The translations under genes were made by a program, and so were the position numbers. Below are positions 26,169-58,396 of a DNA stretch of 64,000 nucleotides, piece after piece. The stretch comes from a virus. Taxonomy: Duplodnaviria; Heunggongvirae; Uroviricota; Caudoviricetes. Position 1 is the stretch's first letter, and each line of letters begins with the position of its first letter. The stretch is from IMG/VR virus record IMGVR_UViG_2974588491_000001, positions 250,380-314,379 of that record. One strand, given 5' to 3'. The notes under the pieces were generated by a model, which saw only the letters and a list, made by a program, of their open reading frames with translations, was not told where the DNA came from and searched no databases.

Positions 26169-26292
26169 CGGGAATTGGTGTAATGGCAGCACAACGTTAT
26201 AACATAGATTCTTGTATATAGGAATTTCACAGCAACCAATACAATTGCATAGGGAGCCGTGAGATGAGGTTCGATTCCTTGATTCCCGACTA
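26169..26292 (+). tRNA. intron-containing tRNA-Pro(AGG)
   Basis: C1-G72, A73; removing 26197-26246 gives ACGGC-ATAGGGA-GCCGT. Confidence 0.7.
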
Positions 26293-26300
26293 ATTAACTA

Positions 26301-26323
26301 AACCAGCTTTATGCTGGTTTTTT
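26301..26323 (+). terminator. intrinsic terminator
   Basis: AACCAGC-TTTAT-GCTGGTT + T run. Confidence 0.75.
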
Positions 26324-26490
26324 CATTTCTGAGGTCATACCATGAAGATATTAAAAGTACACAAAAGTATCGGATATTCAATTTTGCCGTTTAAGCAGAA
26401 TCCTACTTATGGTCGTTGCTCCACTTGCGGAAGATATGATAATGATGGTGGTCCATTATGTGGTAATGTATTTTGCCCAGGAGGGAACTG

Positions 26491-26745
26491 ATGAATCCTA
26501 ATGATTTAAACAATTCTGAAAATTTTACATGGTGTTATACTTGGTCAGACCTTCGTGAGAATTATGATAAAGTAAAACTAGTTAATCCAGAATTCATTGA
26601 ACTGTATGGATTTGCTATTCCAGATGATGTGAAAGTTGGTGATGTTTTTGCAGTCACAGAACTTACTGAAGATGGTGGAACTCGTGTTGACCGTGGATTT
26701 GTTATTCCACGTCAATATCTTGATTACTTTGAGGCTAATTGCTGA
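26491..26745 (+). CDS. hypothetical protein
   Basis: ORF track frame. Confidence 0.6.
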   Translation: MNPNDLNNSENFTWCYTWSDLRENYDKVKLVNPEFIELYGFAIPDDVKVGDVFAVTELTEDGGTRVDRGFVIPRQYLDYFEANC

Positions 26746-27536
26746 TGCACTTTTTGATAATGGATAAGTACTTTAACGAAGATGGATTTCGTATCATGAA
26801 AGAATACATGGTACAGAATAATATTCCTCATACTTCAGTTAAGCCTGTGCCATTTATTAACATATTCGTACCAGAAGACGTTAATGATTATTCTGATTCT
26901 ACATATGAAAAGTACTTCGACAAAAGCATTCCTACTATGTCATTTGGTAGTTATGCATTAGCTCATCAGCTAATTGAAGCCGGTTATACACCTGGTGGAT
27001 ATATTAATGATAATCATAATATTGAAATACAGATGCGTGAATGGGGTTCTGAGAATTTCTTAAATGGTAATTGTATCTTCACTACTATGGGTGAAATTGA
27101 GAATCCTGGTTGGGATAATATTTTCATTCGCCCTGTACATGATACTAAAGTTATGGTTGCTCGTGTAATGGAACAACGTAATTTTAATGCTGAAGTTGAT
27201 GCATTCTTTTCATTCTACGGTGATCCAGAATTTGAAGTACTATTAGCAGAAGCACAAGAAATACTGGCAGAATATCGGTTATTCATTGTTAACGGTAAAG
27301 TTGTATCACATTCTTTATATAAAGTTCGTGGAACATTTTGTATCAATCCTGAAGTGCCAAAAGAAATTATTGATATTGCAGAAGAACTCTGTACTAAATG
27401 GGTTCCAGCCGATGCATTTGTTATGGATTTTGCGGAAACAGATAACGGCTTTAAAGTACTGGAAGTTAATAACATAAATTGTGCTGGATTTTATGCAGCC
27501 AACATACCAGCAATAGTTGAGGCATTCCGTGCGTAA
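26745..27536 (+). CDS. ATP-grasp domain protein (paralog of 18919..19746)
   Basis: FIRPVHDTK, EYRLFIVNGKVVSHSLYK, FVMDFAET..FKVLEVNNINCAGFY. Confidence 0.8.
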   Translation: MHFLIMDKYFNEDGFRIMKEYMVQNNIPHTSVKPVPFINIFVPEDVNDYSDSTYEKYFDKSIPTMSFGSYALAHQLIEAGYTPGGYINDNHNIEIQMREWGSENFLNGNCIFTTMGEIENPGWDNIFIRPVHDTKVMVARVMEQRNFNAEVDAFFSFYGDPEFEVLLAEAQEILAEYRLFIVNGKVVSHSLYKVRGTFCINPEVPKEIIDIAEELCTKWVPADAFVMDFAETDNGFKVLEVNNINCAGFYAANIPAIVEAFRA

Positions 27537-27906
27537 TCATCTTAAAGAATTTCTTGAAAAACATAATACAGTTGCGTATGAATTACAAACTGATGTTAGA
27601 AAAAGTATTGAAGATTTAGAGTTCGTTTATATAAAACTTACGTGTGTATATAATGATTATATGACTCTGCACTATTATACAGATAGTGATAATTTACAAA
27701 TATGGGATGAGATTGATAAATCGGTATACATATATAATGACTTTTCAAAGTTATCTGATGAAGCATACCATTTCCAACAAATGACAGTACTAGACCATAT
27801 CGGATTTGAACATGATGAAGTGCAGCCGATGATGGATATTATAAACCGGATTAAAAGAAAACATGAAACCAAATCTACCAAAAGAACCAGATCCAAGACT
27901 AATTGA
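27517..27906 (+). CDS. TEExxFQxST-motif paralog family protein
   Basis: SDEAYHFQQMTVLD. Confidence 0.55.
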   Translation: MRHSVRNHLKEFLEKHNTVAYELQTDVRKSIEDLEFVYIKLTCVYNDYMTLHYYTDSDNLQIWDEIDKSVYIYNDFSKLSDEAYHFQQMTVLDHIGFEHDEVQPMMDIINRIKRKHETKSTKRTRSKTN

Positions 27907-28324
27907 AAGTATGTGTCTACGTTATGACCATTCTCATGCTATGCGTGTACCACGCTTTAAGAATGGGTCATTTGAAATTGAAACAGAAGAAGAATTTGAA
28001 CGCCGTAGAGATGCAAATCGTCGTGTAATGCGTCAATTGTATGAAGAAGTATCCGGTAACGGTTTCTATCAATATCCAAATCCAAAGGACAAAATGAATA
28101 AATCTATTTGCTTAACTCTACCTGAAGGTGATCAGTCCGACCTTGAAATTGCAGTTTCTCGTTTTATTGAAAGCCTTAATATTGGTTCTGAAGAACCGTG
28201 GGGTGAATGCTATGTACTGCAAGGTAATATCTTACATGGTGTTCAATGGTCATTAACTGAAGATGGTGATTGTGAAATTGGGTGCTCATGGCACGAAAAT
28301 GATAATTACTCTGGAGAAGCATGA
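27863..28324 (+). CDS. hypothetical protein
   Basis: ORF track. Confidence 0.65.
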   Translation: MKPNLPKEPDPRLIESMCLRYDHSHAMRVPRFKNGSFEIETEEEFERRRDANRRVMRQLYEEVSGNGFYQYPNPKDKMNKSICLTLPEGDQSDLEIAVSRFIESLNIGSEEPWGECYVLQGNILHGVQWSLTEDGDCEIGCSWHENDNYSGEA

Positions 28325-28593
28325 TGAGTACTAAAGTAACATTTAAAGTCACTGATGAAGATATGGAATATGCACGTTCTATTTGGGATAGTGCTGATTA
28401 TGTACTTTCTGAAGTGAACCGTATATTAGCTGAACGTGGTATTGATATTAAATTTGATGTTGATAACTGCCATGATGATGAATATCTTGAAGAGTACTGG
28501 AATGAAGAACATCCAGATTATAATCGGGGTATTGTCATTGTAGAAACACCTAACGATGATGAATGCGACTTCATGGACAAATTGATTAAATGA
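28321..28593 (+). CDS. hypothetical protein
   Basis: ORF track. Confidence 0.65.
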   Translation: MMSTKVTFKVTDEDMEYARSIWDSADYVLSEVNRILAERGIDIKFDVDNCHDDEYLEEYWNEEHPDYNRGIVIVETPNDDECDFMDKLIK

Positions 28594-29105
28594 CAAAAAC
28601 TGATCCAAATCTAAATGATGATTTTATCGATTACTTAGCAGATGTATATCCAGATGCAGCCTGGAGTATTACATACATTCACTGGCATGAAAGTGTTGGT
28701 GAATACTGCGTGTATATCGATGACAAATGGCGTGATTATGTTCCAGAAGAATATATCTTCAAAGCAGGGTTCGAACATTATACACGGTGGGTGAACTATT
28801 GGAACAAATATCGTGAACAAGAACTTGAAATGTATCTGGTAGGAAAACATGTTAGAACGCTTATCAAATTTTGTACGGAAAAAGGTACTGTATCATCTGA
28901 TTATTTGGGCTATGTACAGTACTTTATTGATACTATACGGAGTCGGGCGATTACTTCAGAAATGCAGGATTTTGCCTTAACACGAGCTAAAGAGTGGTTA
29001 GAACAAAATGGATACACGGCTGGTGCAGGACTTGTGGTTTCGGAAATTGGAAATAAAAGTGAGCAACATTCTAGGATTCAAAGAACTTCTCGACAAGTTC
29101 TTTAA
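28590..29105 (+). CDS. hypothetical protein
   Basis: ORF track. Confidence 0.65.
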   Translation: MTKTDPNLNDDFIDYLADVYPDAAWSITYIHWHESVGEYCVYIDDKWRDYVPEEYIFKAGFEHYTRWVNYWNKYREQELEMYLVGKHVRTLIKFCTEKGTVSSDYLGYVQYFIDTIRSRAITSEMQDFALTRAKEWLEQNGYTAGAGLVVSEIGNKSEQHSRIQRTSRQVL

Positions 29106-29514
29106 ACATGATGCAGTACTTCGAAAAACAGTGAATCGTTCAACTGCTTGTTATTTCAAATTCGGAGTACAGGAACATTTGGAAGTAAAAATTACTGAAC
29201 ATGGGCTTGTTGAATTTAAATATAAGCCTAATGTGTATGATCACTATCATCTGAATTATGATATTAAAAATGATTCACTAATTCGATATAAAACATCTGT
29301 ATCATATGCGGGTCAAAATCATAATCGTGCTGCCCCGCAAAATGAGTTAGTACTAAGAAACTTAAAACGTCTTTGTACTGAAGAAGGATTTTTTCAAGAA
29401 ATGACACGTCAGGACTTGACAAATCTAGAAGAAGCTGATATTATACGTTTCTTAGATTTGGTAGATAAGATTATAAAAATCAGGAACGAAGCAAATGACA
29501 AAGCCAGTACTTGA
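29008..29514 (+). CDS. hypothetical protein (TEExxFQ-like motif)
   Basis: TEEGFFQEMTRQDL. Confidence 0.6.
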   Translation: MDTRLVQDLWFRKLEIKVSNILGFKELLDKFFKHDAVLRKTVNRSTACYFKFGVQEHLEVKITEHGLVEFKYKPNVYDHYHLNYDIKNDSLIRYKTSVSYAGQNHNRAAPQNELVLRNLKRLCTEEGFFQEMTRQDLTNLEEADIIRFLDLVDKIIKIRNEANDKAST

Positions 29515-39089: not shown

Positions 39090-39336
39090 TAGTGAAGTTT
39101 ACAATGCAGCTATGATCTATCGTGAACTTCGTGCTAAACGTGGTTGTAGTAAAGATAAAAAGTACTGGAATACTGAATTAAGAATTCGTGTTGCAGTAGT
39201 TAATCATGAGATAATCATGAATCGTGGAAAGGCTGGAACAGATAAAGAACGTCCTGAACTTCAGGATGCATATGATTATCTGGCTGAAGGTTTAAAAGAA
39301 GCCATGACTTATGCTGTTCCACTTAAATGTCAGTAA
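39082..39336 (+). CDS. hypothetical protein
   Basis: ORF track frame. Confidence 0.6.
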   Translation: MTNSEVYNAAMIYRELRAKRGCSKDKKYWNTELRIRVAVVNHEIIMNRGKAGTDKERPELQDAYDYLAEGLKEAMTYAVPLKCQ

Positions 39337-39350
39337 AATAAAGAAAAAAC

Positions 39351-39380
39351 TTGAAACGGCGATAAAAACTGTGGTATAAT
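39351..39380 (+). promoter_or_regulatory. WTGAAAC-class promoter
   Basis: TTGAAACG...TGTGGTATAAT, 18-nt spacer. Confidence 0.7.
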
Positions 39381-39406
39381 AAAGGCATCGGTAAGGAGAT
39401 AAACAA

Positions 39407-39607
39407 ATGGCAAAGAATGGTCGTTTGGGTCGTTACACGGTGATTATTAATGGTGATTATGGTTATCTGAGTAAACATGTTAAAGCACATAGTTATTCTG
39501 AAGCTGAAGAAGTCGCCACGGAAGAATACAAAAACGAGAATCCTGAAGATAAAGATGTTGGCTGTGCTGGAATTATTCGCGGCTGGCATGTAGTTTGGGG
39601 TGCTTAA
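39407..39607 (+). CDS. hypothetical protein
   Basis: GGAG RBS. Confidence 0.65.
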   Translation: MAKNGRLGRYTVIINGDYGYLSKHVKAHSYSEAEEVATEEYKNENPEDKDVGCAGIIRGWHVVWGA

Positions 39608-39615
39608 AGAATTAC

Positions 39616-39690
39616 GCCTTTGTAGCTCAGCGGTAGAGCGGGGATCTCTAAAATCCTTTGTCGTGGGTTCGAATCCCTCCATCGGCACAA
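39616..39690 (+). tRNA. tRNA-Sup(CTA), putative amber suppressor
   Basis: GGGAT-CTCTAAA-ATCCT; canonical D and T loops; two acceptor mismatches; ends CAA. Confidence 0.75.
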
Positions 39691-39701
39691 ATTGAAAATA
39701 T

Positions 39702-39886
39702 AAGTGAGCTTTAGTGGTTCATTGGTAAAACAATGCGGGTAGTAGTGTTATTGACCTAGCACGTATCGGTTTCCTTAACTTTAGCCGATAAAGATTGGGG
39801 GTTTGAATCCCTCTACCCGCCGCACTAAAGGTAGCGTACATAGTACGAGCAACTAACACGAGGCGTCGGATTCCACGCCTACACTT
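39702..39886 (+). ncRNA. nested tRNA-like structured RNA
   Basis: inner cloverleaf 39735-39820 with 15-nt anticodon-position loop, inside CTTTAGTG/CACTAAAG and AAGTG/CACTT stems. Confidence 0.55.
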
Positions 39887-39903
39887 ATATTAAACTGTAC
39901 AAT

Positions 39904-39990
39904 GCGGGTGTGGCGGTATTGGTAGTACGCAAGGGATTTAAAATCCCTCAGACTTCGGTCTTGTGAGTTCGAATCTCATCACCCGTACCA
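39904..39990 (+). tRNA. tRNA-Leu(TAA)
   Basis: AGGGA-TTTAAAA-TCCCT, variable arm, CCA. Confidence 0.92.
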
Positions 39991-39992
39991 AT

Positions 39993-40104
39993 GCATAAAT
40001 GACGGAATTGGTAAACGTAGAGTCTGACAATAGCGAAAGCGACGATAGGACTTCGGGAGTAGCCGTGAGGTTCCCTTGTAGGTTCGAATCCTGCTTTATG
40101 CACC
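39993..40104 (+). ncRNA. class II tRNA-like RNA with 24-nt expanded anticodon loop
   Basis: acceptor GCATAAA/TTTATGC, Leu-type D arm, T-loop TTCGAAT, oversized anticodon and variable arms. Confidence 0.6.
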
Positions 40105-40127
40105 TTTTTAATTAAGCGGAGTTTATC

Positions 40128-40361
40128 ATGGATAAATGTACTGTTTGTAATGGTGATGGTTGGCATTATGGTGGTGATGGTACTATGTACGAATGTGAAC
40201 CATGTAATAGTACTGGTGTAGTTCAAACAAATCGTCGTGTACTTTCTGAAGAATCTTTCAATCAAGTACAAGAAGCAATTAACAAACCAGCTAATCCATT
40301 TTTAATGCTGCGTAAACTTATGCGTCGTAAAAGTACTAACAGTACTTATATCAAGAAATAA
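40128..40361 (+). CDS. small zinc-finger protein (CxxCxGxG)
   Basis: CTVCNGDG..CEPCNSTG. Confidence 0.65.
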   Translation: MDKCTVCNGDGWHYGGDGTMYECEPCNSTGVVQTNRRVLSEESFNQVQEAINKPANPFLMLRKLMRRKSTNSTYIKK

Positions 40362-40368
40362 TTAATTC

Positions 40369-40445
40369 GGCCCTTTGTACTGTCGCGTGAAAGTACTCTG
40401 CTCATAACAGATGTAAGGTGGGTTAGACTCCCACAAGGGCCACCA
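40369..40445 (+). tRNA. tRNA-(CAT), probably Ile2 rather than Met
   Basis: loop CTCATAA; acceptor GGCCCTT/AAGGGCC resembles ileX-type; CCA. Confidence 0.8.
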
Positions 40446-40471
40446 ACTTTTTAAATGGATTTTGTGTTTTA

Positions 40472-40876
40472 ATGAAAATGGATTTAGAATATCCGTACAA
40501 CCAAGATTGGCAACGCGGATACCTTGTGGTTAATCCAGAAGGAAGAAAAACAGTTATATTGTTTAATTCGGATAATGATAGAAGCTCTACTGCATATGCA
40601 CGATATTTACTAGCAGTAAAAGAGGGTAGATATTTAACTGAAAATGAACAAGCTGATCATATAGATGCGGATAAAACTAATGATAGTATTGATAATCTGC
40701 AAATATTAACAATAGAACAGCATAAAGAAAAAAGTTTATTTGAATCTCCTGGTAAAACGTATGTTGAATTTATATGCCAATATTGTGGGGAATCATTTAA
40801 AAGAGAAATTCGCCAAATTAAACCATACACTAAGTATTGTAGTAGAAGATGTGGATGGGATAGTTTAAAAAAATAA
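40472..40876 (+). CDS. HNH endonuclease with C-terminal zinc finger
   Basis: ADHIDADKTNDSIDNLQILT; CQYCG..YCSRRC. Confidence 0.82.
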   Translation: MKMDLEYPYNQDWQRGYLVVNPEGRKTVILFNSDNDRSSTAYARYLLAVKEGRYLTENEQADHIDADKTNDSIDNLQILTIEQHKEKSLFESPGKTYVEFICQYCGESFKREIRQIKPYTKYCSRRCGWDSLKK

Positions 40877-40887
40877 CTAAGAATTAT

Positions 40888-41054
40888 GCCGTGTACAGGT
40901 TCGATTCCTGTTCATTCACTGAGAGAAAGTACTCGAAAGGTGCACACAGTACAGTACGAGTATCAATAATGGTATTGTGATAGGGTGACAAGAAGATATT
41001 CTTGAGTGGTTGGTACTACGTTCATCTGAAATGGGTTCGAACCCCATTTGCGGC
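40888..41054 (+). ncRNA. structured RNA with two T-arm-like hairpins
   Basis: ACAGG-TTCGATT-CCTGT and AAATGGG-TTCGAAC-CCCATTT within GCCGT/GCGGC closing stem. Confidence 0.5.
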
Positions 41055-41235
41055 TCCTATTAATTGAGGATTGAATATGATGCAGTACTTAAAAGAAAAC
41101 TTGTGTTTTATTTTGTTCGGTATCTTATTCTTATGCGTCTGTGGCATTATTACTAATGCAATTATTGACGGTGTACAGCGTAACATCACTCAGAAAATGA
41201 TTGATGACACATATCGTATTCACAAGTGAGATCAT

Positions 41236-43374: not shown

Positions 43375-43401
43375 ACTGTTTATTAAGTGAGAGAACAAAT
43401 C

Positions 43402-43605
43402 ATGACTAAAGCAGAATTGATTGAAGCATTGAAAGATTATCCAGATGATGCCTGTATTGAAATAGTACATGGTTCTGGTGGCAATCATTATGATATTGGT
43501 AAAGTAGTACATTATAATGATTATGGTATTCAAATTGCAGAACTGGCTATTAGTGAACCTAAAACTGTGCCAGAATCTATTATTCGTGGTATTCGCGAGG
43601 CTTAA
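43402..43605 (+). CDS. hypothetical protein
   Basis: ORF track frame. Confidence 0.6.
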   Translation: MTKAELIEALKDYPDDACIEIVHGSGGNHYDIGKVVHYNDYGIQIAELAISEPKTVPESIIRGIREA

Positions 43606-44406
43606 ATGAACGAGTTCATCGAGAAGTTTATTACAGGTTATACTGGTTTGAGTTCTAAAACTCGTAACCATATTCGTTCTTTCAACCGCCGAATCAGTAA
43701 TTACAAATTTGTAATGATTCATCCAGTACTTATTAAAGATGATTATGAACTGATGGTGGGATTTGTTAATGACAACTCCAATATCTGGCCTTTGGGTGAA
43801 GAAGAACAGCGTAAAGCGTTTGAATTCATTGGTCATCGTGGTCATGAATTCCTGCGTACTGATGATAAGCTGGATACGGAAATGTTCAACCAAACGTTGT
43901 ACATTGAAACTTCCCGTTTCTCTCCAATTGCTTTGGAAACCGGTTCTTGGGAGCAATTACTGAATGCTCCGAAAATCGAAGATGGTGACTTTGAACTTCT
44001 CAGTGAACCATTTAGTACTTTCTTTAATCTGGATGAACATTACAACAACGATTTTGACGTATGGGAATTCTTTCAAGAAAAGAATAAACCATCTGACGTA
44101 GAACTGCGTGTTGTCTGGAAAGATGTTGACAGTGACCATAAGTACGGGAACATTAACACACTAATTTTCTGGCAGGGTGAATTCATCGGATGGGTGAATA
44201 GTGGTTCTAAATGGTTGGCAACACACGTGTATAATACTGTGAATGCTGAACGTTGGGCTGCATTCATGCAGTACTTGTATCAGTGTTCCGGTCAAACGCC
44301 AAATAATACATTACGTGGAATTTACGTGGTTGACATGAATAGCGTTACTGACGTTGAGAGTGTTATCAGTATTCCTGGATTAACTGAACCAGATTACGGT
44401 GAATAA
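43606..44406 (+). CDS. hypothetical protein
   Basis: 266 aa ORF. Confidence 0.75.
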   Translation: MNEFIEKFITGYTGLSSKTRNHIRSFNRRISNYKFVMIHPVLIKDDYELMVGFVNDNSNIWPLGEEEQRKAFEFIGHRGHEFLRTDDKLDTEMFNQTLYIETSRFSPIALETGSWEQLLNAPKIEDGDFELLSEPFSTFFNLDEHYNNDFDVWEFFQEKNKPSDVELRVVWKDVDSDHKYGNINTLIFWQGEFIGWVNSGSKWLATHVYNTVNAERWAAFMQYLYQCSGQTPNNTLRGIYVVDMNSVTDVESVISIPGLTEPDYGE

Positions 44407-44710
44407 TATGACATTCATGCATTTTGTTAACTTCGGAAAGAAAAAACCACAAAGTGATGAAAAAATTATTATTCATCTTGAACATTCTGTTTTTGAAAGT
44501 GGCATTACTGAAGAATTGGAAGGTATAATCGCAAAAGCATTAAAAGATGGTACATGGTCACGTACTACGCTTATACCACCATCACCAATAAGTATCAATA
44601 TGAGTACTGGTGAAGGTACACCATTGCCACTAGGTCAAATGTCAACGGATATTTTAATTGACATGTGTAATGAAATCCTTAAACGTTTGCAGGATGATAC
44701 TGATGAATGA
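44399..44710 (+). CDS. hypothetical protein
   Basis: ORF track. Confidence 0.6.
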   Translation: MNNMTFMHFVNFGKKKPQSDEKIIIHLEHSVFESGITEELEGIIAKALKDGTWSRTTLIPPSPISINMSTGEGTPLPLGQMSTDILIDMCNEILKRLQDDTDE

Positions 44711-45110
44711 ACTGATTGAAACTTGGATGCACAATGTTAAAGTGTATCCACCTGCGGAAATCTTTTTTGAAAAGTACGGGAAAGAAGCAAAAGCTGAAGA
44801 ACGTATTAAGCAACTTTGTGAAGATGTTTATCGTTTCTGCTTCCCTGAAGGTACTAAAAACCCGTTGGGTGATCTTGGTCAATCGTATCGTGAATTTGAA
44901 GTTGCATATCTTATGGGCTTCGACGGCATGAAACCAGAGTACATCACAAAAGTTAAAGATGCGTTCCTTGCTGATGTGAAGTACGCAATAACTGAACTGG
45001 AAAAAATGTTCAAAAAGGATCAAATCCTTCAGCAGTACTATGCACCGTGGAAAGTCAAATTCGCGGATATTAACTCAGCCGTTTATGATATGACTAAGGA
45101 TTATGTATGA
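44703..45110 (+). CDS. hypothetical protein
   Basis: ORF track frame. Confidence 0.65.
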   Translation: MNELIETWMHNVKVYPPAEIFFEKYGKEAKAEERIKQLCEDVYRFCFPEGTKNPLGDLGQSYREFEVAYLMGFDGMKPEYITKVKDAFLADVKYAITELEKMFKKDQILQQYYAPWKVKFADINSAVYDMTKDYV

Positions 45111-45334
45111 AAATCTTAGCCATTGAACGTTATGGTGATTTTGATATGCCATATCTGGTATTATTCAAAGGTTCAGAAGAATCCCCTGAACCATCGGTAG
45201 TACTTGCTGAACTTGAAGCAATCAATGAACCAACTTGGTTGGAACAAGAGAAACTTCATAATCAAATGGTTCGTATTTTGACTAGTCATGGCTATACAAA
45301 ATTTGAACCACCAATGGTCACTATTAGTGATTAA
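45107..45334 (+). CDS. hypothetical protein
   Basis: ORF track. Confidence 0.6.
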   Translation: MKILAIERYGDFDMPYLVLFKGSEESPEPSVVLAELEAINEPTWLEQEKLHNQMVRILTSHGYTKFEPPMVTISD

Positions 45335-45343
45335 TATTTAAAA

Positions 45344-45461
45344 GCAGTGATCGTCTAGCGGCCCAGGACACGAAAAGCGATTCTTGATTAAGAATCTTAC
45401 GGCATCTATAACTTTCATTTCACGAACGTAACGTAGGTTCGAATCCTACTCACTGCTCAAA
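45344..45461 (+). tRNA. intron-containing tRNA-Glu(TTC)
   Basis: Glu-type D arm GTCTAGCGGCCCAGGAC; ~42-nt insert 45373-45414; TTTTCAC loop; perfect acceptor and T arms. Confidence 0.7.
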
Positions 45462-45480
45462 TTATAAAAGGCTTTTTAAA

Positions 45481-45774
45481 ATGAAAAGTATTTTATTCTT
45501 TCAATATGCAGCAACTGGTGAAGGTTGGCGTACAGAAATCCGTTTCTGTAATCAGTCAAGACTCAGTGATGAACAAGCGATAGAACAGTTTAAGCAGAAA
45601 CATCACGAGTACTTTCATTGTGGTATAGAAATGCATGACATTGATGAAGCGAAGGAAGACAAACGTTTTCTGCAACATTTGCAAGAACACGTACCTGCTT
45701 TACATCGTTATGTTGTGGGAAATCGTGGTTGTTTAATTGATATTGACTACGTTCATTACGTGAATTTCTCATAA
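45481..45774 (+). CDS. hypothetical protein
   Basis: ORF track. Confidence 0.65.
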   Translation: MKSILFFQYAATGEGWRTEIRFCNQSRLSDEQAIEQFKQKHHEYFHCGIEMHDIDEAKEDKRFLQHLQEHVPALHRYVVGNRGCLIDIDYVHYVNFS

Positions 45775-45849
45775 AAATCCTTGACTTGCGTCGGTTGACC
45801 TGATAGAATGTATTTACTGATTTGAAATATAAAAGTTAACGAGGCTATC

Positions 45850-46131
45850 ATGAGCAACGGTACTGGTATTGCAATGCGTATTCAGATATTACCTAGTGGT
45901 CTTATCATCGGTCATGTGGTTCCTGAAGAACATCCGGCAAATGGTCATATTACAATGAAAACTGATCACGTATATGAGTTGCAGTTTGAACTTGCATACG
46001 GACGTGAACAATTGCGTGATATTGGCGAAGCCGATGTGAAAATGTTTGATATTCAACCTGGTGGTTGTGGTCTGGATAAATTCATTGCTCTGGCTGGTGG
46101 TAAACATCTTACTGTGAAGAACGGAAAGTAA
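45850..46131 (+). CDS. hypothetical protein
   Basis: GAGG RBS. Confidence 0.65.
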   Translation: MSNGTGIAMRIQILPSGLIIGHVVPEEHPANGHITMKTDHVYELQFELAYGREQLRDIGEADVKMFDIQPGGCGLDKFIALAGGKHLTVKNGK

Positions 46132-46133
46132 CC

Positions 46134-46331
46134 ATGAAAGTACAATGGATCAAAATTAAAAATCCAGACGATATGCAATTCTTCGCTGGAAAGATTTATC
46201 CAAAAGATGATGCTGACTATCAGTACATCGAAGATGAATTTGGTACTCAGTACTCAGTAAGTCCTGATGGACTTAAAGAACTTCAGAATTTCGGATGGGA
46301 AATTGAGGTACAATATGAAAGTATACATTGA
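46134..46331 (+). CDS. hypothetical protein
   Basis: ORF track. Confidence 0.6.
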   Translation: MKVQWIKIKNPDDMQFFAGKIYPKDDADYQYIEDEFGTQYSVSPDGLKELQNFGWEIEVQYESIH

Positions 46332-46680
46332 TGATATTCGTGATCCTCAAAAGTACTTGACTGCTGAACAAGCTGAAGGTATTGTATGGCTCAAAGAATG
46401 GTGGGAAGCAAAACGTTTTTTGATTGAACATTCTTCTGAAATTGAAGTAATTCATTTTGACCATTATATGGATGAACCAACTTTAACTGGTACTGATCTG
46501 TTTATGATGGTTGCGGGTGATTGCATGTGGGGTGATAAAGAAAATTGGCCTAATGTGAAAACCATTTATCTTCATTCTTCGGATGAAGACAGTATTGAAG
46601 AATTGATGGAAAACTATGCAGAACCTATGCATAAGGCTGGTGTAGAAGTTATCAATAATAGTCAGAGGAATAATTACTGA
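46315..46680 (+). CDS. receiver-fold protein (cyclic-phosphate-processing type), paralog 1
   Basis: MKVYIDDIRDP...IHFDHYM...TGTDL...IYLHSS. Confidence 0.65.
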   Translation: MKVYIDDIRDPQKYLTAEQAEGIVWLKEWWEAKRFLIEHSSEIEVIHFDHYMDEPTLTGTDLFMMVAGDCMWGDKENWPNVKTIYLHSSDEDSIEELMENYAEPMHKAGVEVINNSQRNNY

Positions 46681-47036
46681 TGAAAGTATATGTTGATGAT
46701 ATTCGTAATCCAGAAAACCATCTCAGTGCTGAACAGGCAGAAGGAATCCACTGGAAAAAAGAATGGTGGGAAGCAAAGAACTTTATCTTCGATAACTGCG
46801 AAGAAATTGAAACTATCCATCTGGACAATTTCTTAGGTGATCGTACTCATACTGGTGCTGATATACTTCGTATGGTAACTCGTAGTTTAAAACGCGGTAC
46901 GTTCCCTAAACTGAAACAAATTTATCTTCACAGTTCTGACAAAGAAGTTGTGAATAACTTATATAACTCTCAGATTGAGTGTTGTAAAGAAGCAGGTGTT
47001 GAGTTAATTAAAAACTCACGTCCTAATCGTACTTAA
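46680..47036 (+). CDS. receiver-fold protein (cyclic-phosphate-processing type), paralog 2
   Basis: MKVYVDDIRNP...IHLDNFLG..TGADI...IYLHSS. Confidence 0.65.
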   Translation: MKVYVDDIRNPENHLSAEQAEGIHWKKEWWEAKNFIFDNCEEIETIHLDNFLGDRTHTGADILRMVTRSLKRGTFPKLKQIYLHSSDKEVVNNLYNSQIECCKEAGVELIKNSRPNRT

Positions 47037-47044
47037 TAAAATAT

Positions 47045-47169
47045 GGCGAGTTAGCTCAGTGGTAGAGCACGTATGAAACCCAGGATTCCTGTACTTGAAT
47101 CCCGCAGCAACTATACTCTCAAGCCTTTTAAGCTCGTGGTCATTGGTTCGAATCCAATACTCGCCACCA
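47045..47169 (+). tRNA. intron-containing tRNA-Lys(TTT)
   Basis: removing 47072-47121 gives perfect CGAGC-CTTTTAA-GCTCG; all other arms canonical; CCA. Confidence 0.8.
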
Positions 47170-47186
47170 AACATTGAGGAAAAGAT

Positions 47187-47420
47187 ATGTCTATCTTTGC
47201 TGAAATTAAACAAAGTTTTTTAGATGCAGTACGTACTGATGTGACTTTTGCTGATCCAGCAATTGCACGTGAGCAATCATCTAAGTCAGTAAACCCTACT
47301 ACTTATGATCGCTATCAGAAGTATCATTTTGACGCTGGTGAAATGTCTAAACTGGACAAAGTACTTGGCAATTTTATTAACCCTGTAATCGATAATATTA
47401 AAAAGGTTATCATTAAATGA
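47187..47420 (+). CDS. hypothetical protein
   Basis: GAGG RBS. Confidence 0.65.
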   Translation: MSIFAEIKQSFLDAVRTDVTFADPAIAREQSSKSVNPTTYDRYQKYHFDAGEMSKLDKVLGNFINPVIDNIKKVIIK

Positions 47421-55574: not shown

Positions 55575-55834
55575 GGAATTTAACAGCACAAAACATTTTG
55601 TCGCAGGTTCGAATCCTGCCAGAAATATTTAATTTGTAGATTACTTTATTATCATTTTCTAGATATTGATAATATTGAACATGTAACACCGTGGAGGTAA
55701 CAGCTTTAGCGGGTTGTGAGATAAACGCAGGGGTTACAATATATGTTGCAACGACCGATATGGCTAATCATAACAAATTAACTTAGTTCTGTAGCTTAGC
55801 TGGTAGAGCAAATGATAACGAATAAATTCCAGTA
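55575..55834 (+). ncRNA. circularly permuted tRNA with ~165-nt spacer, bracketed by CAGCAA element
   Basis: CATTT-TGTC-GCAGGTTCGAATCCTGC-CAGAAAT ... AGTTCTG-TAGCTTAGCTGGTAGAGC-AAATG; bracket GGAATTT/AAATTCC. Confidence 0.72.
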
Positions 55835-55866
55835 TTAATTAAACTAAAAAAAAAAGGTGCAATACA

Positions 55867-56301
55867 GTGGAACACGCTTTTAAAATTAACATCGGAGATT
55901 ATTCTGATGATGGTCATGGTAAAAACGAAGTTATTATTGTTAAAAGTACTAAATCAGTACAAGATGTACTTAATGCGTTCATCAGTGCTGGTACTAAATT
56001 GAATGTAGTTCAACATGGTAGATTTGTAATTGCTGAAGAATATGAAGATTCAAAGCTAAGTAATGAACATGCTGACTTCCTTCGTAATGCAGGTATCGAA
56101 TTCGAAGATCTAGTTTATAACGATGGTGACGAAGAAGAACCTGAATACATGATTAACGGCACTAATGAAATCATCCATTTAGTAATGCGTATTGCACAAA
56201 CAGAATTAGACTTCGATTATCAAATTGCGAATGATACAATTCCATCATTCAATGGTTTTAGTGGAGCGGGTCCACAAATCGGATACGGTCTATTCTGGTA
56301 A
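55867..56301 (+). CDS. hypothetical protein
   Basis: GDYSDDGHGK motif; GTG start. Confidence 0.7.
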   Translation: MEHAFKINIGDYSDDGHGKNEVIIVKSTKSVQDVLNAFISAGTKLNVVQHGRFVIAEEYEDSKLSNEHADFLRNAGIEFEDLVYNDGDEEEPEYMINGTNEIIHLVMRIAQTELDFDYQIANDTIPSFNGFSGAGPQIGYGLFW

Positions 56302-56309
56302 TAAAATTT

Positions 56310-56375
56310 GGAATCTAGCAGCAACCATAAAATGAAATCAACTGTTAATTGAAAACCTCAAAAAATGGATTCCAG
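56310..56375 (+). ncRNA. minimal CAGCAA element enclosing Asn-like anticodon stem-loop
   Basis: GGAATCT-AGCAGCAA ... TCAA-CTGTTAA-TTGA ... GGATTCC-AG. Confidence 0.62.
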
Positions 56376-56381
56376 CCTTTT

Positions 56382-56693
56382 ATGAATATAAAAGAAATTG
56401 TAGAACAAATTGAAAGTACTATGAAAACTTCAGGTGATAATTACATGAAGGAGTTAATACTAACAAATAGGAAGAAATTACGTAACACATTCTGTGATGA
56501 ATGTAATTCTTACTCCGTGTTCATGATAGTACATGATGAATTATGGAACATCATAAGTGACGGTAACTTAGATATTTTCTTATGTCCTAAATGTATGGAA
56601 AATCGATTAGGTAGAAAAATAGAAATTGCTGATTTAAAAATTTGTAATGTAAATTACCCTTACTTTTTAGCATTACAAATGATTGAAAAATAA
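56382..56693 (+). CDS. hypothetical protein with zinc-binding motifs
   Basis: CDECN...W...LCPKCMENRLGR. Confidence 0.6.
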   Translation: MNIKEIVEQIESTMKTSGDNYMKELILTNRKKLRNTFCDECNSYSVFMIVHDELWNIISDGNLDIFLCPKCMENRLGRKIEIADLKICNVNYPYFLALQMIEK

Positions 56694-56723
56694 ATGAAAC
56701 GCCACAAGAAATTGTGGTATAAT
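56694..56723 (+). promoter_or_regulatory. WTGAAAC-class promoter
   Basis: ATGAAACG...TGTGGTATAAT, 18-nt spacer. Confidence 0.72.
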
Positions 56724-56743
56724 ATAAGTAAGAAAAACAACTT

Positions 56744-56818
56744 GACTGTATAGCTCAGAGGCAGAGCGGCTCCCTGTTAAGGAGAAGGTCGGGATTTCGA
56801 AATTCCCTACGGTCGCAA
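56744..56818 (+). tRNA. tRNA-Asn(GTT)
   Basis: loop CTGTTAA, G73, ends CAA. Confidence 0.88.
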
Positions 56819-56942
56819 AGAATCAAATTCACCAGGCGTACTATGGTGCAATACGGATAGCATGTTATTCTATAAGATTGGAATAGAATACGTATTAGAA
56901 CCTTGTAAAGTTCTTCTGTAAACTCAATTTGATACCTTCTTT

Positions 56943-57009
56943 AGAATCTAACAGCAAACACATTTAAACATATATTTTTGGGATATAAAACGTTAAAAAC
57001 GGATTCTAG
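56943..57009 (+). ncRNA. minimal CAGCAA element
   Basis: AGAATCT-AACAGCAA ... TATAT-TTTTGGG-ATATA ... GGATTCT-AG. Confidence 0.6.
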
Positions 57010-57038
57010 TCTTATTAAAAGCAATCGAGAATATTTAC

Positions 57039-57269
57039 ATGAAAACGATCAAAATGTATTTGCTACAACGTCCAGGCCGCGATGATGATTATATCTCAGT
57101 ACTAGATGATAAAATCAACGTTCAGTCAAGTCTATTAAAACATATGTGGAATGACCCAAGTAAGATCAATTTCAAAATTCTGACATTCCCTTATACATTA
57201 GAAACCTATTATGGTGATTCTAATGTTCTGGAAGATGCAGTACTATTATGGGAACATAATATAGATTAA
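57039..57269 (+). CDS. hypothetical protein
   Basis: ORF track. Confidence 0.6.
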   Translation: MKTIKMYLLQRPGRDDDYISVLDDKINVQSSLLKHMWNDPSKINFKILTFPYTLETYYGDSNVLEDAVLLWEHNID

Positions 57270-57275
57270 AAATTT

Positions 57276-57331
57276 AGAATCTAACAGCAATTAAAACTCA
57301 TTTGGATAATATGAAAACCGATAGATTCTAG
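57276..57331 (+). ncRNA. minimal CAGCAA element
   Basis: AGAATCT-AACAGCAA ... TCAT-TTGGATAAT-ATGA ... AGATTCT-AG. Confidence 0.6.
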
Positions 57332-57336
57332 TCTTT

Positions 57337-57412
57337 AGGCGTATAGTGTAATTGGTTAGCACACCAGGTTTTGATCCTGGTAATCGAGGTTCAAGTCCTT
57401 GTATGCCTGCAA
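57337..57412 (+). tRNA. tRNA-Gln(TTG)
   Basis: CCAGG-TTTTGAT-CCTGG, G73, ends CAA. Confidence 0.9.
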
Positions 57413-57430
57413 AATAAAATAAGGCAAATT

Positions 57431-57679
57431 ATGTTCGAACAAGAATACAGCAATTCAACTCCAGTACAAGATATGCTTGCATATTTTGTAACCGGTACAG
57501 TACGAATTAGCGATTATATGGTTGAAGAACCAAGAAGATATAATAAGTCACACATTGTTTATGCTCTTGATGAAAATGACGCAGAACGTAAGTTCATAGA
57601 ACATTATGAAAAGAAAACTTCAGAGTATGAACGTTACTACAGTGTAAGTAATGTAGAAGTTTCAGAAACCTTAATTTAA
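57431..57679 (+). CDS. hypothetical protein
   Basis: ORF track frame, AAGG RBS. Confidence 0.65.
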   Translation: MFEQEYSNSTPVQDMLAYFVTGTVRISDYMVEEPRRYNKSHIVYALDENDAERKFIEHYEKKTSEYERYYSVSNVEVSETLI

Positions 57680-57815
57680 AAAATTTCATTTCCTTGTGAA
57701 ACAAGCTCGCATGATTCCCCTAGCTTGTAAAATTGTATGATGGGAACCGCGTTGCACCTGTACAGGTCAGATTGTAAAGATCAAGTATGTACAGTACTGA
57801 GAGCGGCAGTACACT

Positions 57816-57890
57816 GCATCCATCGTATATCGGCTATTATAATTGGCTTCCACCCAATAGAACGGAGTTCGACCCTCCGTGGATGCTCGA
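57816..57890 (+). tRNA. tRNA-Gly(TCC)
   Basis: ATTGG-CTTCCAC-CCAAT, U73, Gly-type D arm; no encoded CCA. Confidence 0.88.
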
Positions 57891-58004
57891 AGATTAACAA
57901 ACAATAAGGTAAATTATATGCTATAGAATCCTAGTACTGGTCCTCCTGATAAGTTTAATTCAGAACAAACTACTAAATTAAACAATATCAAAAAGGAACA
58001 TATT

Positions 58005-58331
58005 ATGTTAAACAAAGAACAATACATTACTGTAAAAGCAACCTGGAAAAAAGTAAAAGAGCACACTGTACACGAACACATTATCTATAATGTACTTCGG
58101 GGTAAAGAGGCTGATGAAGGGTTTGTAGCTTTAACTGATTGGGGTCGTTTGAATGCAAGTGATAACAATCCGTGGTTCAACTATGATAACGCAGTACGCG
58201 AAATTCACTATCAGTTGAATGCTAAACGTTATAACTATGAAGGTACAGTAAAACATTATTCCGATGTTTTCGGCATTGATTTAACACCTGAACTAATTGC
58301 AGAAGTACTACAAGCAATTAAGTTCAAGTAA
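58005..58331 (+). CDS. hypothetical protein (possible amber-readthrough N-terminal extension from 57918)
   Basis: ORF track; upstream in-frame ATG CTA TAG AAT CCT... Confidence 0.7.
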   Translation: MLNKEQYITVKATWKKVKEHTVHEHIIYNVLRGKEADEGFVALTDWGRLNASDNNPWFNYDNAVREIHYQLNAKRYNYEGTVKHYSDVFGIDLTPELIAEVLQAIKFK

Positions 58332-58339
58332 CAGAATTT

Positions 58340-58396
58340 AGAATCTAACAGCAATTAAACTCATTTGGATAATATGAAAAACAATAGATTCTAGTA
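58340..58396 (+). ncRNA. minimal CAGCAA element (near copy of 57276)
   Basis: AGAATCT-AACAGCAA ... CTCATTTGGATAATATGAAAA ... AGATTCT-AGTA. Confidence 0.6.

What the first reader, a model, noticed from the sequence alone, without database searches (positions are those of the whole stretch)
26169..58396. A 16-copy 'CAGCAA' RNA element that interrupts, permutes or miniaturises tRNAs: candidate new phage tRNA splicing/circularisation system
Seen: 16 dispersed copies share a 7-bp helix (consensus GRAATCT paired with AGATTCY), NRCAGCAA directly after the GAATC strand and WG(TA) directly after the GATTC strand. The helix covaries (GGAATCT/AGATTCC, GAAATCT/AGATTTC, AGAATCG/CGATTCT, GGATTCA/TGAATCC, GGAATTT/AAATTCC), which points to RNA structure. 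Three topologies occur. (a) GATTC-loop-GAATC order as a 42-50 nt insert in the 5' strand of the anticodon stem of full tRNAs (26169, 45344, 47045, 52282). (b) GAATC...GATTC order bracketing a 3'-half-then-5'-half permuted tRNA (51188, 51377, 51855, 53932, 54190, 55575), plus one copy at 51998 with no clear tRNA. (c) The same bracket around only an anticodon-like hairpin (52404, 56310, 56943, 57276, 58340). Where a tRNA is recognisable the element sits at positions ~26-32. Inference: (a) and (b) are the same junction opened at different points of a circle, like an intron and its permuted-intron-exon form. Excision plus ligation would give mature tRNA from (a), circular intermediates from (b) and tiny circular anticodon RNAs from (c). 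It does not look like a group I intron (too short) or an archaeal bulge-helix-bulge, and I recognise no described family. TACAG can also pair with (C/T)TGTA, suggesting a pseudoknot.
Basis: partly seen in the sequence, partly recalled or inferred. Interest (0 to 1): 0.97.

Follow-up and report, generated by a model that had tools for sequence, protein, structure and literature searches.

The report
Phage tRNA-mimic RNAs with Ro60-type handle
The 16 repeats are real small-RNA genes in which one constant "handle" (a short helix plus the bases ACAGCAA) is attached to whole tRNAs, rearranged tRNAs or bare anticodon hairpins; they most likely work as partner RNAs of a phage Ro60-like protein, and I found nothing that shows they are a new tRNA-splicing system.

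Summary
All 16 copies are present, all lie on the + strand, and the 378-kb phage genome (a relative of GAP32) has no others. The 7-8 bp helix covaries, and the three topologies are circular permutations of one module.

The splicing and circularisation reading is neither shown nor excluded. Three things argue against it:
- The handle is the only part shared by all copies.
- Intron-free Glu and Lys tRNAs coexist with the interrupted ones.
- Some cargoes have non-canonical anticodon loops.
No endonuclease gene, bulge-helix-bulge (BHB) motif or known ribozyme was found.

The evidence points instead to a Y-RNA-like role:
- A covariance model of the handle hit 65 sites in 72 unrelated phage loci chosen only because they encode a homolog of this phage's DUF2828/vWA protein.
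- All 65 hits lie on the gene's strand. In 30 loci a hit ends 200 nt or less upstream of the gene's start.
- That protein folds like Ro60. In this phage its gene sits between an RNA ligase gene and a 2H phosphoesterase gene.

Best reading: these are Y-RNA-like RNPs that display tRNA or anticodon-arm mimics, probably in the conflict over tRNA cleavage.

Earlier notes of this scan found the same family on other DNA. I found no published description of the RNA.

The parts
26170..26289 (+). Type a: tRNA-like gene (Pro(agg)-like after removal) with a 50-nt handle insert at 26197-26246. Helix strands at 26206-26212 and 26221-26227; CAGCAA at 26230-26235.
   Evidence: (R1, 54 bits)
45344..45458 (+). 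Type a: tRNA-Glu(ttc)-like gene with a 41-nt handle insert at 45373-45413, between positions 28|29. The motif variant here is CGGCAT.
   Evidence: (53.9 bits)
47045..47169 (+). Type a: tRNA-Lys(ttt)-like gene with encoded CCA and a 50-nt handle insert at 47072-47121, between positions 28|29.
   Evidence: (61.9 bits)
52282..52401 (+). Type a: tRNA-like gene with a 43-nt handle insert at 52310-52352. After removal the anticodon loop is non-canonical. The GAP32 ortholog has a perfect Lys arm and a different helix sequence.
   Evidence: (55.6 bits)
51188..51308 (+). Type b: handle closing a degenerate permuted tRNA-like body. It has its own TG-extended promoter at 51141-51170, and its 5' leader is complementary to the acceptor-like loop.
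51377..51494 (+). Type b: handle closing a permuted tRNA-like body (5-bp T arm, 7-bp acceptor-like hairpin). It has its own promoter at 51330-51359. The leader-to-loop pairing covaries in phage BF.
51855..51958 (+). Type b: handle (AGAATCG/CGATTCT) around a T arm plus a short hairpin. It starts 3 nt after tRNA-Tyr.
51998..52154 (+). Handle (GGATTCA/TGAATCC) around a conserved cargo of about 130 nt that is not tRNA-like. The helix covaries in the GAP32 and BF orthologs.
52404..52465 (+). Type c: handle plus a short hairpin cargo.
   Evidence: R2, 57.1 bits
53932..54069 (+). Type b: handle around a T arm, a variable-arm-like hairpin and a D-like arm.
   Evidence: 33.1 bits
54190..54332 (+). Type b: handle around a permuted tRNA-like body with canonical T and D arms and an anticodon stem GCAGC/GCTGC. 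Weak Rfam YrlA match (31.4 bits).
55575..55830 (+). Type b: handle (motif variant CAGCAC) around T and D arms, with about 150 nt inserted in the acceptor loop.
56310..56373 (+). Type c: handle plus a hairpin with an Asn-type anticodon loop (CTGTTAA).
   Evidence: 55.7 bits
56943..57007 (+). Type c: handle plus a hairpin with a Gln-like loop (TTTTGGG).
   Evidence: 58.7 bits
57276..57329 (+). Type c: handle plus a short hairpin. It ends 8 nt before tRNA-Gln.
   Evidence: 60.9 bits
58340..58392 (+). Type c: handle plus a short hairpin; a near copy of the one at 57276.
   Evidence: 56.9 bits

Best explanation
The 16 elements are genes for small non-coding RNAs of one modular family. Each has a constant handle: a 7-8 bp helix, with ACAGCAA on the strand leaving the helix, an A-rich run on the strand entering it, and W-G after it. 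In the family consensus this reads TTA-GGATnnn-TW-CAGCAA ... AAAAAnn-nnnATCC-TGTT.

The handle carries a variable cargo taken from tRNA. The cargo is a whole tRNA, with the handle branching from the anticodon stem at 28|29; or a tRNA body with a closed acceptor end, which is the YrlA topology; or only an anticodon-arm look-alike.

I infer that the handle stays in the mature RNA and is the binding site for the phage's Ro60-like ring protein (DUF2828 + vWA, at G000:C1:102737-104251). This would give Y-RNA-like RNPs.

I further infer that the tRNA or anticodon-arm cargo is the effector part. It would engage proteins that recognise anticodon arms: host anticodon nucleases, modification enzymes, or the phage's own repair enzymes. 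In this phage the protein's gene lies between genes for an RNA ligase and a 2H phosphoesterase.

What is shown: the RNA-level helix, the conserved handle, the permuted topologies, the Ro60 fold of the protein, and the synteny of handle RNAs with that gene across phages. What is inferred: binding itself, retention of the handle, and the decoy or tether role.
For: (1) The handle is the only feature common to all 16 copies and to 52 aligned members from many phages. Cargoes range from full tRNAs to a non-tRNA RNA.

(2) Helix covariation.

(3) Protein P0002 was modelled at pLDDT 88.6. The 13 best Foldseek PDB matches are all Ro60/TROVE structures over the whole length (E 6e-10 to 6e-6, TM 0.33-0.59; only D. 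radiodurans Rsr, 2nvo, falls below 0.48), including Thermus phage phiLo Ro60. The MIDAS residues D303, S305 and S307 are invariant.

(4) Model R2 was run on 72 diverse loci picked only for encoding a P0002 homolog (1.22 Mb, both strands). It gave 65 hits at E<=1, all on the gene's strand, in 45 loci. In 30 loci a hit ends 200 nt or less upstream of the gene's start, and in 6 loci a hit lies just downstream.

(5) Reciprocal test: 5 of 5 contigs found through the RNA alone encode a homolog.

(6) In Felixounavirus JN01 the gene is followed by a tRNA cluster holding four handle RNAs with a different helix sequence (AGACCnn/nnGGTCT) but the same CAGCAA.

(7) Type b has the YrlA order, and there is a weak YrlA Rfam hit.

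(8) Gene context: RNA ligase (PHA02142 OB fold + PF09414), then the Ro60-like gene, then a 2H-SAK phosphoesterase. The ligase adjacency is conserved in GAP32.

(9) Intron-free Glu(ttc) and Lys(ttt) tRNAs coexist with the interrupted copies. Several cargoes are non-canonical while their handle is intact.

(10) A Ro60-like protein of Felixounavirus Bas63, encoded just upstream of its tRNA genes, counters the Ppl defence system (PMC11482910).
Against: - No binding data and no RNA ends exist for this family.
- In this genome the protein gene lies about 170 kb from the RNAs. The link therefore rests on other phages and on co-occurrence.
- 27 of the 72 loci gave no R2 hit.
- The handle lacks the GNCGAA or GGUCCGA motif of known Ro60 sites, and the protein does not match Pfam TROVE.
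- Canonical 7-nt anticodon loops, exact 28|29 placement and an encoded CCA (47045) would also fit tRNAs that are activated by splicing.
- Bas63 gp130 works against Ppl when moved alone into T7, so at least that activity needs no phage RNA (PMC11482910).
- The ligase and 2H neighbours are not conserved in two distant loci I examined.
Confidence: 0.6

Rival explanations
1. One reading: the handle is a splicing and circularisation signal. Cutting at both borders and ligation would give mature tRNAs from type a, circular permuted pre-tRNAs from type b and small circular anticodon RNAs from type c. The end-healing and sealing steps could fall to the phage's 2H phosphoesterase and its RNA ligases (Rnl1-like and Rnl2-like), perhaps organised by the Ro60-like protein.
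For: - In-silico removal gives perfect Lys, Glu and Pro-like cloverleaves.
- The same 28|29 junction restores Asp, His and Lys arms in unrelated phages.
- Heal-and-seal type enzymes are encoded.
- The topologies are exact permutations of one another.
Against: - No endonuclease gene was found (PF01974 absent; RtcB absent).
- There is no BHB motif and no constant local structure or distance at the junctions.
- There is no known ribozyme.
- The handle is more conserved than the 'exons'.
- Intron-free paralogs are present.
- Some products would have 8- or 10-nt loops or C33.
- Type c products would be circles of about 35 nt with no precedent.
- The synteny is with an RNA-binding ring protein, as for Y RNAs.
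Confidence: 0.15
2. The handle is a generic processing or stability tag, unrelated to the Ro60-like protein. Examples would be a terminal stem that ends transcription before the T-rich tail and blocks exonucleases, or a site for a host RNase.
For: - In types b and c the second helix strand is followed by WGT and T-rich sequence.
- Two units have their own promoters, placed so that the helix joins the transcript's two ends.
Against: - It does not explain the invariant CAGCAA and the A-rich loop.
- It does not explain type a, where the helix is internal and capped by a loop.
- It does not explain the strict same-strand position next to Ro60-like genes in dozens of phages.
Confidence: 0.12
3. A selfish mobile mini-element, or an undiscovered small self-cleaving or self-ligating ribozyme, that has spread through tRNA genes.
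For: - Many near-identical helices occur within one genome.
- The handle plus downstream segment at 52282 resembles that at 26169 rather than its GAP32 ortholog, which suggests exchange between copies.
Against: - There is no match to any Rfam ribozyme.
- The only supported structure is one helix.
- The copies are orthologously conserved at fixed loci in GAP32 and BF.
- The minimal members form a fixed gene pair with the Ro60-like gene.
Confidence: 0.08
4. A DNA-level repeat, such as a protein-binding inverted repeat or a recombination site.
For: At the DNA level the helix is an inverted repeat.
Against: - Compensatory changes keep the pairing while the sequence changes, and G-U pairs occur.
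- Strict strand bias: 16 of 16 copies here and 65 of 65 hits in other phages.
- The copies sit inside tRNA transcription units.
Confidence: 0.03

Closest known systems
YrlA-type bacterial and phage Y RNAs with Ro60/Rsr (Rfam RF02553; Chen et al. 2014, PMC4201824; phiLo Ro60 with Yrl1/2, PMC12135203)
   Same: - Small RNAs encoded beside, and on the strand of, a Ro60-fold TROVE+vWA protein.
- A terminal stem joins the 5' and 3' ends.
- A tRNA-like module in the order T arm, closed acceptor-like stem, D arm (type b).
- Several RNAs per genome.
   Different: - The handle is a different motif: helix + ACAGCAA + A-rich strand, with no GNCGAA or CGAA.
- The Rfam score is far below threshold (31 against 69 bits).
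- The protein is the divergent DUF2828 branch, which Pfam TROVE does not detect.
- The cargo is modular: unpermuted tRNAs with the handle branching at 28|29, bare anticodon-arm mimics, a non-tRNA RNA and, elsewhere, a handle in place of the acceptor stem.
- In this genome the RNAs lie in the tRNA region, 170 kb from the protein gene.
Protein-spliced tRNA introns and permuted or split tRNA genes of archaea and Cyanidioschyzon merolae (BHB motif, Sen/EndA endonuclease, circular intermediates; reviewed in PMC4090602)
   Same: - Short inserts at non-canonical tRNA positions whose removal restores the cloverleaf.
- Genes with the 3' half before the 5' half, clamped by a helix.
   Different: - No BHB motif and no EndA-family gene, in a bacterial host.
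- The insert is the conserved part.
- Many cargoes cannot make a working tRNA.
Phage T4 tRNA repair (Pnkp + Rnl1) and phage RNA-repair cassettes with a ROT/TROVE protein (Iyer et al. 2021, PMC7824862)
   Same: - An Rnl1-like ligase, an Rnl2-like ligase and a 2H phosphoesterase are encoded.
- The TROVE-like protein has been noted in some jumbo phages as a platform 'with a tRNA-like partner'.
   Different: In what I could read, the partner RNAs of this phage group had not been identified. Their handle and modular design are not described there.

Membership tests
YrlA / Y RNA-like (RF02553) | Scores at or above the Rfam gathering threshold (69 bits) | tested here: not met
   The best hit is 54221-54311 at 31.4 bits, E 8e-4. 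It covers only the T-to-D arm part. There was no hit at the gathering threshold.
YrlA / Y RNA-like (RF02553) | GNCGAAN0-1G (Ro60-site) motif near the 5' end | tested here: not met
   The 5' conserved motif is NR-CAGCAA in all 16 copies and in 52 family members. GGCGAA-like strings occur in only a few cargoes.
YrlA / Y RNA-like (RF02553) | tRNA-like module in the order (V) - T arm - closed acceptor-like stem - D arm, with the RNA ends joined in a stem | tested here: met
   Met for type b (51377, 54190, 55575, 53932). Not met for types a and c.
YrlA / Y RNA-like (RF02553) | Encoded close to, and on the strand of, a Ro60 ortholog | tested here: inconclusive
   In this genome the RNAs lie at 276-309 kb and the Ro60-like gene at 103 kb. 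For the family as a whole the feature is met: 65 of 65 hits are on the gene's strand, and in 30 of 72 loci a hit ends 200 nt or less upstream.
YrlA / Y RNA-like (RF02553) | Physically bound by the Ro60 protein | not testable with these tools
   This needs RIP, CLIP or EMSA.
Ro60 / TROVE+vWA proteins (for the partner protein P0002) | Ring of HEAT-like repeats plus a vWA domain (Ro60 fold) | tested here: met
   AF2 model at pLDDT 88.6. The top 13 Foldseek PDB hits are all Ro60/TROVE structures over about 520-570 columns.
Ro60 / TROVE+vWA proteins (for the partner protein P0002) | Match to Pfam TROVE (PF05731) | tested here: not met
   No match in the genome. The protein matches DUF2828 + DUF7788 instead. 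A profile search against PDB sequences gave nothing.
Ro60 / TROVE+vWA proteins (for the partner protein P0002) | vWA MIDAS motif DxSxS | tested here: met
   D303, S305 and S307 are invariant in 38 homologs. There is a weak VWA_2 hit.
BHB-type (archaeal/eukaryal) tRNA introns and permuted tRNAs | Splicing endonuclease of the EndA/Sen family available | tested here: not met
   PF01974 is absent from the phage genome. The hosts are enterobacteria, which lack it (general knowledge).
BHB-type (archaeal/eukaryal) tRNA introns and permuted tRNAs | Bulge-helix-bulge at the two junctions | tested here: not met
   By inspection of 12 type-a junctions there is no 3-nt bulge / 4-bp helix / 3-nt bulge arrangement. 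The linkers differ in length and sequence.
BHB-type (archaeal/eukaryal) tRNA introns and permuted tRNAs | Removal of the insert yields a canonical tRNA | tested here: inconclusive
   Met for 47045, 45344 and 26169, but not for 52282. Several relatives give 8-nt loops or C33.
Group I introns in bacterial or phage tRNA genes | Intron of about 200 nt or more with a P1-P9 core, in the anticodon loop | tested here: not met
   The inserts are 41-50 nt long and lie in the anticodon stem. There is no Rfam intron match.
Known small self-cleaving ribozymes (hammerhead, twister, pistol, hatchet, HDV-like, hairpin) | Match to the family covariance model | tested here: not met
   There is no such match up to E=5 over 51100-58500.

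The most novel reading that the evidence does not exclude
The handle is both a Ro60-like binding site and a processing signal. In this reading the Ro60-like ring, with the neighbouring RNA ligase and 2H phosphoesterase and an unidentified nuclease, cuts out the handle and rejoins the cargo. That would be a protein-guided tRNA splicing and RNA circularisation pathway in bacteriophages, giving switchable spare tRNAs and small circular anticodon RNAs.
Probability: 0.12. Interest if true: 0.95.

Novelty: new variant of a known kind. Interest (0 to 1): 0.72.

Why it matters
If the reading holds, several things follow:
- A protein found in at least 708 phage records, including Felixounavirus, T4-like vibriophages, jumbo phages, and Listeria, Staphylococcus and mycobacterial phages, gains a defined family of RNA partners with a simple, searchable signature.
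- "Pseudo", "undetermined" or intron-containing tRNA annotations in these phages can be re-read as Y-RNA-like genes. Some small CDS calls that overlap them, such as GAP32_431A, are probably wrong.
- The cargoes copy the anticodon arms that carry hypermodified wobble bases: Lys, Glu and Gln, and Asn, Asp, His and Tyr. From general knowledge, these are the classic targets of anticodon nucleases. This gives a testable idea for how phages counter tRNA-cleaving defences.
- It also offers an RNA component to examine for the reported anti-Ppl activity of a Felixounavirus Ro60-like protein (PMC11482910).
- More broadly, it gives a tractable bacterial and phage system for asking what Ro60-Y RNA particles do.

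Tried and rejected
- **Rfam.** Searches at gathering and at E-value thresholds found only tRNA, plus weak sX4 and YrlA hits.
- **Splicing machinery in the genome.** RtcB, TROVE and EndA Pfam families are absent.
- **Public RNA runs.** Only Logan contigs were available. All 'joints' near the elements carry foreign anticodon arms, meaning they are other organisms' tRNAs matching the D and T arms. No junction at a predicted splice site was seen, and one contig runs unspliced across 47045-47156. This is evidence neither way. The second read-laying run was not used, for the same reason.
- **14-mer scan of IMG/VR.** It is dominated by chance matches. Used as a negative control for R2 it turned out not to be neutral, because several of those loci are true family members.
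- **Regex scans for helix plus motif.** They were too noisy, giving about 10 false hits per 64 kb per strand, so covariance models replaced them.
- **Single-sequence structure prediction of P0002.** It failed at pLDDT 43. A profile search against PDB sequences found nothing.
- **A second helix between the two linkers.** For example TATG/TATA in 47045 and ATTAAT/ATTAAT in one D479 copy. It is not conserved across copies.
- **Pairing of the bases after CAGCA with the bases before the second strand.** It is present in only 4 of 16 copies.
- **K-turn reading of the internal loop.** Rejected, because there is no GA next to the helix on the non-bulged strand.
- **Brute-force ARAGORN over junction positions.** It is too permissive to rank junctions.
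- **Conserved ligase and 2H neighbourhood in distant homolog loci.** Not seen in the two loci examined.
- **Burroughs and Aravind 2016.** The paper could not be read because it is not held.

Full report
**What the window is.** The window lies at 250,380-314,379 of a 378,379-bp phage genome with terminal repeats. Its closest cultured relative is Cronobacter phage GAP32, at about 85% identity. Serratia phage BF, the Erwinia pEa_SNUABM phages and the Yersinia fHe-Yen9 phages follow. ARAGORN finds 24 tRNAs. Rfam adds three over-long "tRNAs" of 110-122 nt.

**Checking the observation.**
- CAGCAA is twice as frequent as expected (68 against 30).
The rest of the genome has no convincing copy.
- Each copy has the complementary strand either about 8 nt upstream (four type-a copies) or 40-250 nt downstream (twelve copies).
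An A-rich run (GAAAAC.A.) precedes the second strand, W-G follows it, and T/A-rich bases precede the first strand.
- The helix covaries. In a 17-sequence type-a alignment from this phage, GAP32, BF and Vibrio phage D479, all 9 pairs show double changes, with 84.5% of cells paired against 61% in shuffles. In open-form alignments 98% and 93.5% of cells are paired. In one BF copy the two strands are swapped (GGAATCT then AGGATTC).

**The inserts in tRNAs.**
- Removing 50 nt (47072-47121), 41 nt (45373-45413) and 50 nt (26197-26246) gives clean cloverleaves for Lys(ttt), Glu(ttc) and a Pro(agg)-like tRNA. The junction lies between positions 28 and 29 (29|30 in the last). The copy at 52282 gives a 10-nt loop.
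- The same design occurs in a very different phage, the T4-like Vibrio phage D479. It has four annotated 116-124-nt tRNA genes with other helix sequences (CCAATCT/AGATTGG, GTATCTT/AAGATGC) and the motif variant TACCGCAA.
- It also occurs in uncultured phages, with Asp(GTC), His(GTG) and Lys arms restored across 28|29.

**Why I do not read these inserts as introns.**
1. The pairs that "reappear" (27:43, 28:42 and 29:41-31:39) also form in the unspliced RNA, with the handle as a third arm. Complementarity therefore does not prove splicing.
2. The distances from the handle to the two junctions vary (5-11 nt and 8-12 nt). No common local structure such as a bulge-helix-bulge exists.
3. The handle is the constant part, while the "exons" are dispensable. 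Cargoes include degenerate permuted tRNA bodies, bare hairpins, a conserved 130-nt non-tRNA RNA (51998) and, in another phage, a tRNA body whose acceptor stem is replaced by the handle (L185:5185-5295).
4. Intron-free tRNA-Glu(ttc) (51682) and tRNA-Lys(ttt) (63443) are present in the same window.
5. Some copies have lost a canonical anticodon loop but keep a perfect handle. Examples are 52282 against its GAP32 ortholog, D479 copies with CCGTTAA or an 8-nt loop, and L200.
6. The phage has no EndA-type endonuclease and no RtcB, and the elements match no known ribozyme.

**The link to a Ro60-like protein.** Rfam gave a sub-threshold YrlA (Y RNA-like) hit on the copy at 54190. Type b has the YrlA order of T arm, closed acceptor-like stem and D arm (PMC4201824). 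D479 annotates an "RNA-binding protein" near its tRNA cluster. That protein is DUF2828 + DUF7788 and has a 42%-identical homolog in this genome, P0002, at G000:C1:102737-104251.

P0002 does not match Pfam TROVE. With an alignment of 38 homologs, however, it models at pLDDT 88.6. Its 13 best PDB matches are all Ro60/TROVE structures over the full length, including Thermus phage phiLo Ro60. The vWA MIDAS residues are invariant.

In this phage its neighbours are an RNA ligase (PHA02142 OB fold + PF09414) upstream and a 2H-SAK phosphoesterase downstream. The ligase adjacency holds in GAP32. An Rnl1-like ligase is encoded elsewhere in the genome.

**Testing the link.** I fetched 80 IMG/VR loci chosen only because they encode a relative of P0002. 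I then built two covariance models: R1 for the closed form and R2 for the open form.
- On the 72 loci that are not close relatives of this phage (1.22 Mb, both strands), R2 gave 65 hits at E<=1 in 45 loci. All 65 are on the strand of the protein gene.
- In 30 loci a hit ends 200 nt or less (mostly 20-90 nt) before the start codon. In 6 loci a hit lies just after the stop.
- R1 gave 6 hits, all upstream and on the same strand.
- In the reverse direction, 5 of 5 contigs that I had reached only through the RNA motif encode a homolog. Two of those matches are weak and cover only the vWA part.
- In Felixounavirus JN01 the gene is followed directly by a tRNA cluster with four handle RNAs. They have yet another helix sequence, but TTACAGCAA or ATTCAGCAA is unchanged.

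The minimal RNAs next to the gene are a handle plus a hairpin. The 7-nt loop of that hairpin is usually a canonical anticodon loop, such as CTCATAA, CTGTTAA, CTTTTAA or CTGTAAA.

**Mechanism proposed.**
- *Shown:* an RNA-level handle, modular tRNA-derived cargo, a Ro60-fold protein, and tight synteny of the two across phages.
- *Inferred, about 0.6:* the handle is kept and bound by the Ro60-like ring, giving Y-RNA-like particles.
- *Inferred more weakly, about 0.3:* the cargo presents tRNA or anticodon-arm look-alikes to proteins that recognise them. Candidates are host anticodon nucleases (as bait or decoy), wobble-modification enzymes, or the phage's own ligase and 2H repair enzymes.

The identities seen are Lys, Glu and Gln, and Asn, Asp, His and Tyr, plus Met/Ile-type CAT. 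By general knowledge these are the tRNAs with hypermodified wobble bases that anticodon nucleases target.

A 2024 preprint reports that the Ro60-like gp130 of Felixounavirus Bas63, encoded just upstream of its tRNA genes, counters the Ppl defence system. It also reports that gp130 does so when moved alone into T7. Its authors guessed that some "tRNA genes" might be Y RNAs (PMC11482910). That supports a counter-defence role for the protein. It also warns that not every activity of the protein needs these RNAs.

**Expression features in the window.** The copies at 51188 and 51377 each have a strong TG-extended sigma-70-type promoter 18 nt upstream of the helix. The other copies abut tRNAs and are probably co-transcribed with them. 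The second helix strand is followed by T-rich sequence. RNA-seq contigs from public runs were uninformative.

**Literature and earlier notes.** Papers describe YrlA with Rsr (PMC4201824), phiLo Ro60 with CGAA-motif Yrl RNAs (PMC12135203), and a TROVE-like protein "with a tRNA-like partner" in some jumbo phages (PMC7824862). I found no description of the ACAGCAA handle family or of its modular topologies. Earlier notes of this same scan had already flagged the family on other DNA and proposed the Ro60 link. I re-tested both claims here.

**Verdict.** The splicing interpretation is only partly supported. The best classification is a new variant of the Y RNA / Ro60 kind.

Noticed in passing
window 51171-51187 with 51252-51262; window 51360-51376 with 51446-51456: The leader just 5' of the handle is complementary to the loop of the acceptor-like hairpin: ATAAGGCAA/TTGCCTTAT in the copy at 51188 and TAGCAAC/GTTGCTA in the copy at 51377. 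In the BF ortholog both sides have changed (AAAGCAAC/GTTGCTTT). This points to a conserved long-range pairing or an alternative fold that crosses the handle helix.
   Followed up: partly
window 51998-52154: The cargo of this handle is not tRNA-like, but it is conserved in GAP32 and BF (blocks such as ACTCGGA...TCCCTTCG and CTTGGCAACT). It is an unassigned structured RNA of about 130 nt.
   Followed up: partly
window 39616-39688: A tRNA with anticodon CTA (an amber suppressor; ARAGORN calls it 'Pyl') is conserved as 'Sup-tRNA' in GAP32 and BF. I did not examine whether the phage uses TAG recoding.
   Followed up: no
window 39731-39826 and 39993-40102: Two more aberrant tRNA-like genes lie here, with normal acceptor and T arms but an oversized anticodon or variable region (one has a GCGAAAGC hairpin). 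Neither has the ACAGCAA handle.
   Followed up: no
G000:C1:100131-105488 (outside the window): An RNA-repair-like cassette lies here, in this order: ORF of 182 aa, RNA ligase (PHA02142 OB fold + PF09414), ORF of 202 aa, Ro60-like DUF2828/vWA protein, 2H-SAK phosphoesterase, ORF of 191 aa. In GAP32 a CCA-adding enzyme and a ribosome hibernation factor lie a few kb further on.
   Followed up: partly
L117:31887-32006 (GAP32) and L118:20001-20125 (BF): GAP32 annotates a 39-aa CDS (GAP32_431A) over the ortholog of the handle-bearing tRNA at 52282. BF labels the Lys ortholog 'tRNA-Pseudo', and the Yersinia phages label theirs 'tRNA-Undet'. These annotations probably hide members of this RNA family.
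   Followed up: partly
window 52310-52375 versus L117:31905-31975: The tRNA bodies of these orthologs are nearly identical. The handle and the anticodon arm, however, differ completely. The window copy resembles the copy at 26169, while GAP32 has helix AAATTAC/GTAATTT and a perfect Lys arm. This suggests module exchange between copies.
   Followed up: partly
L185:5185-5295: This is a fourth topology, in an unrelated phage. The handle closes a tRNA body in normal order (D arm, TCT anticodon arm, T arm), so it takes the place of the acceptor stem.
   Followed up: no
L119:15398-15853 (Vibrio phage D479): The gene annotated 'RNA ligase' matches the anti-CBASS protein Acb1 (PF23474, E 4e-40), which is a 2H-type phosphodiesterase and not a ligase.
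   Followed up: yes
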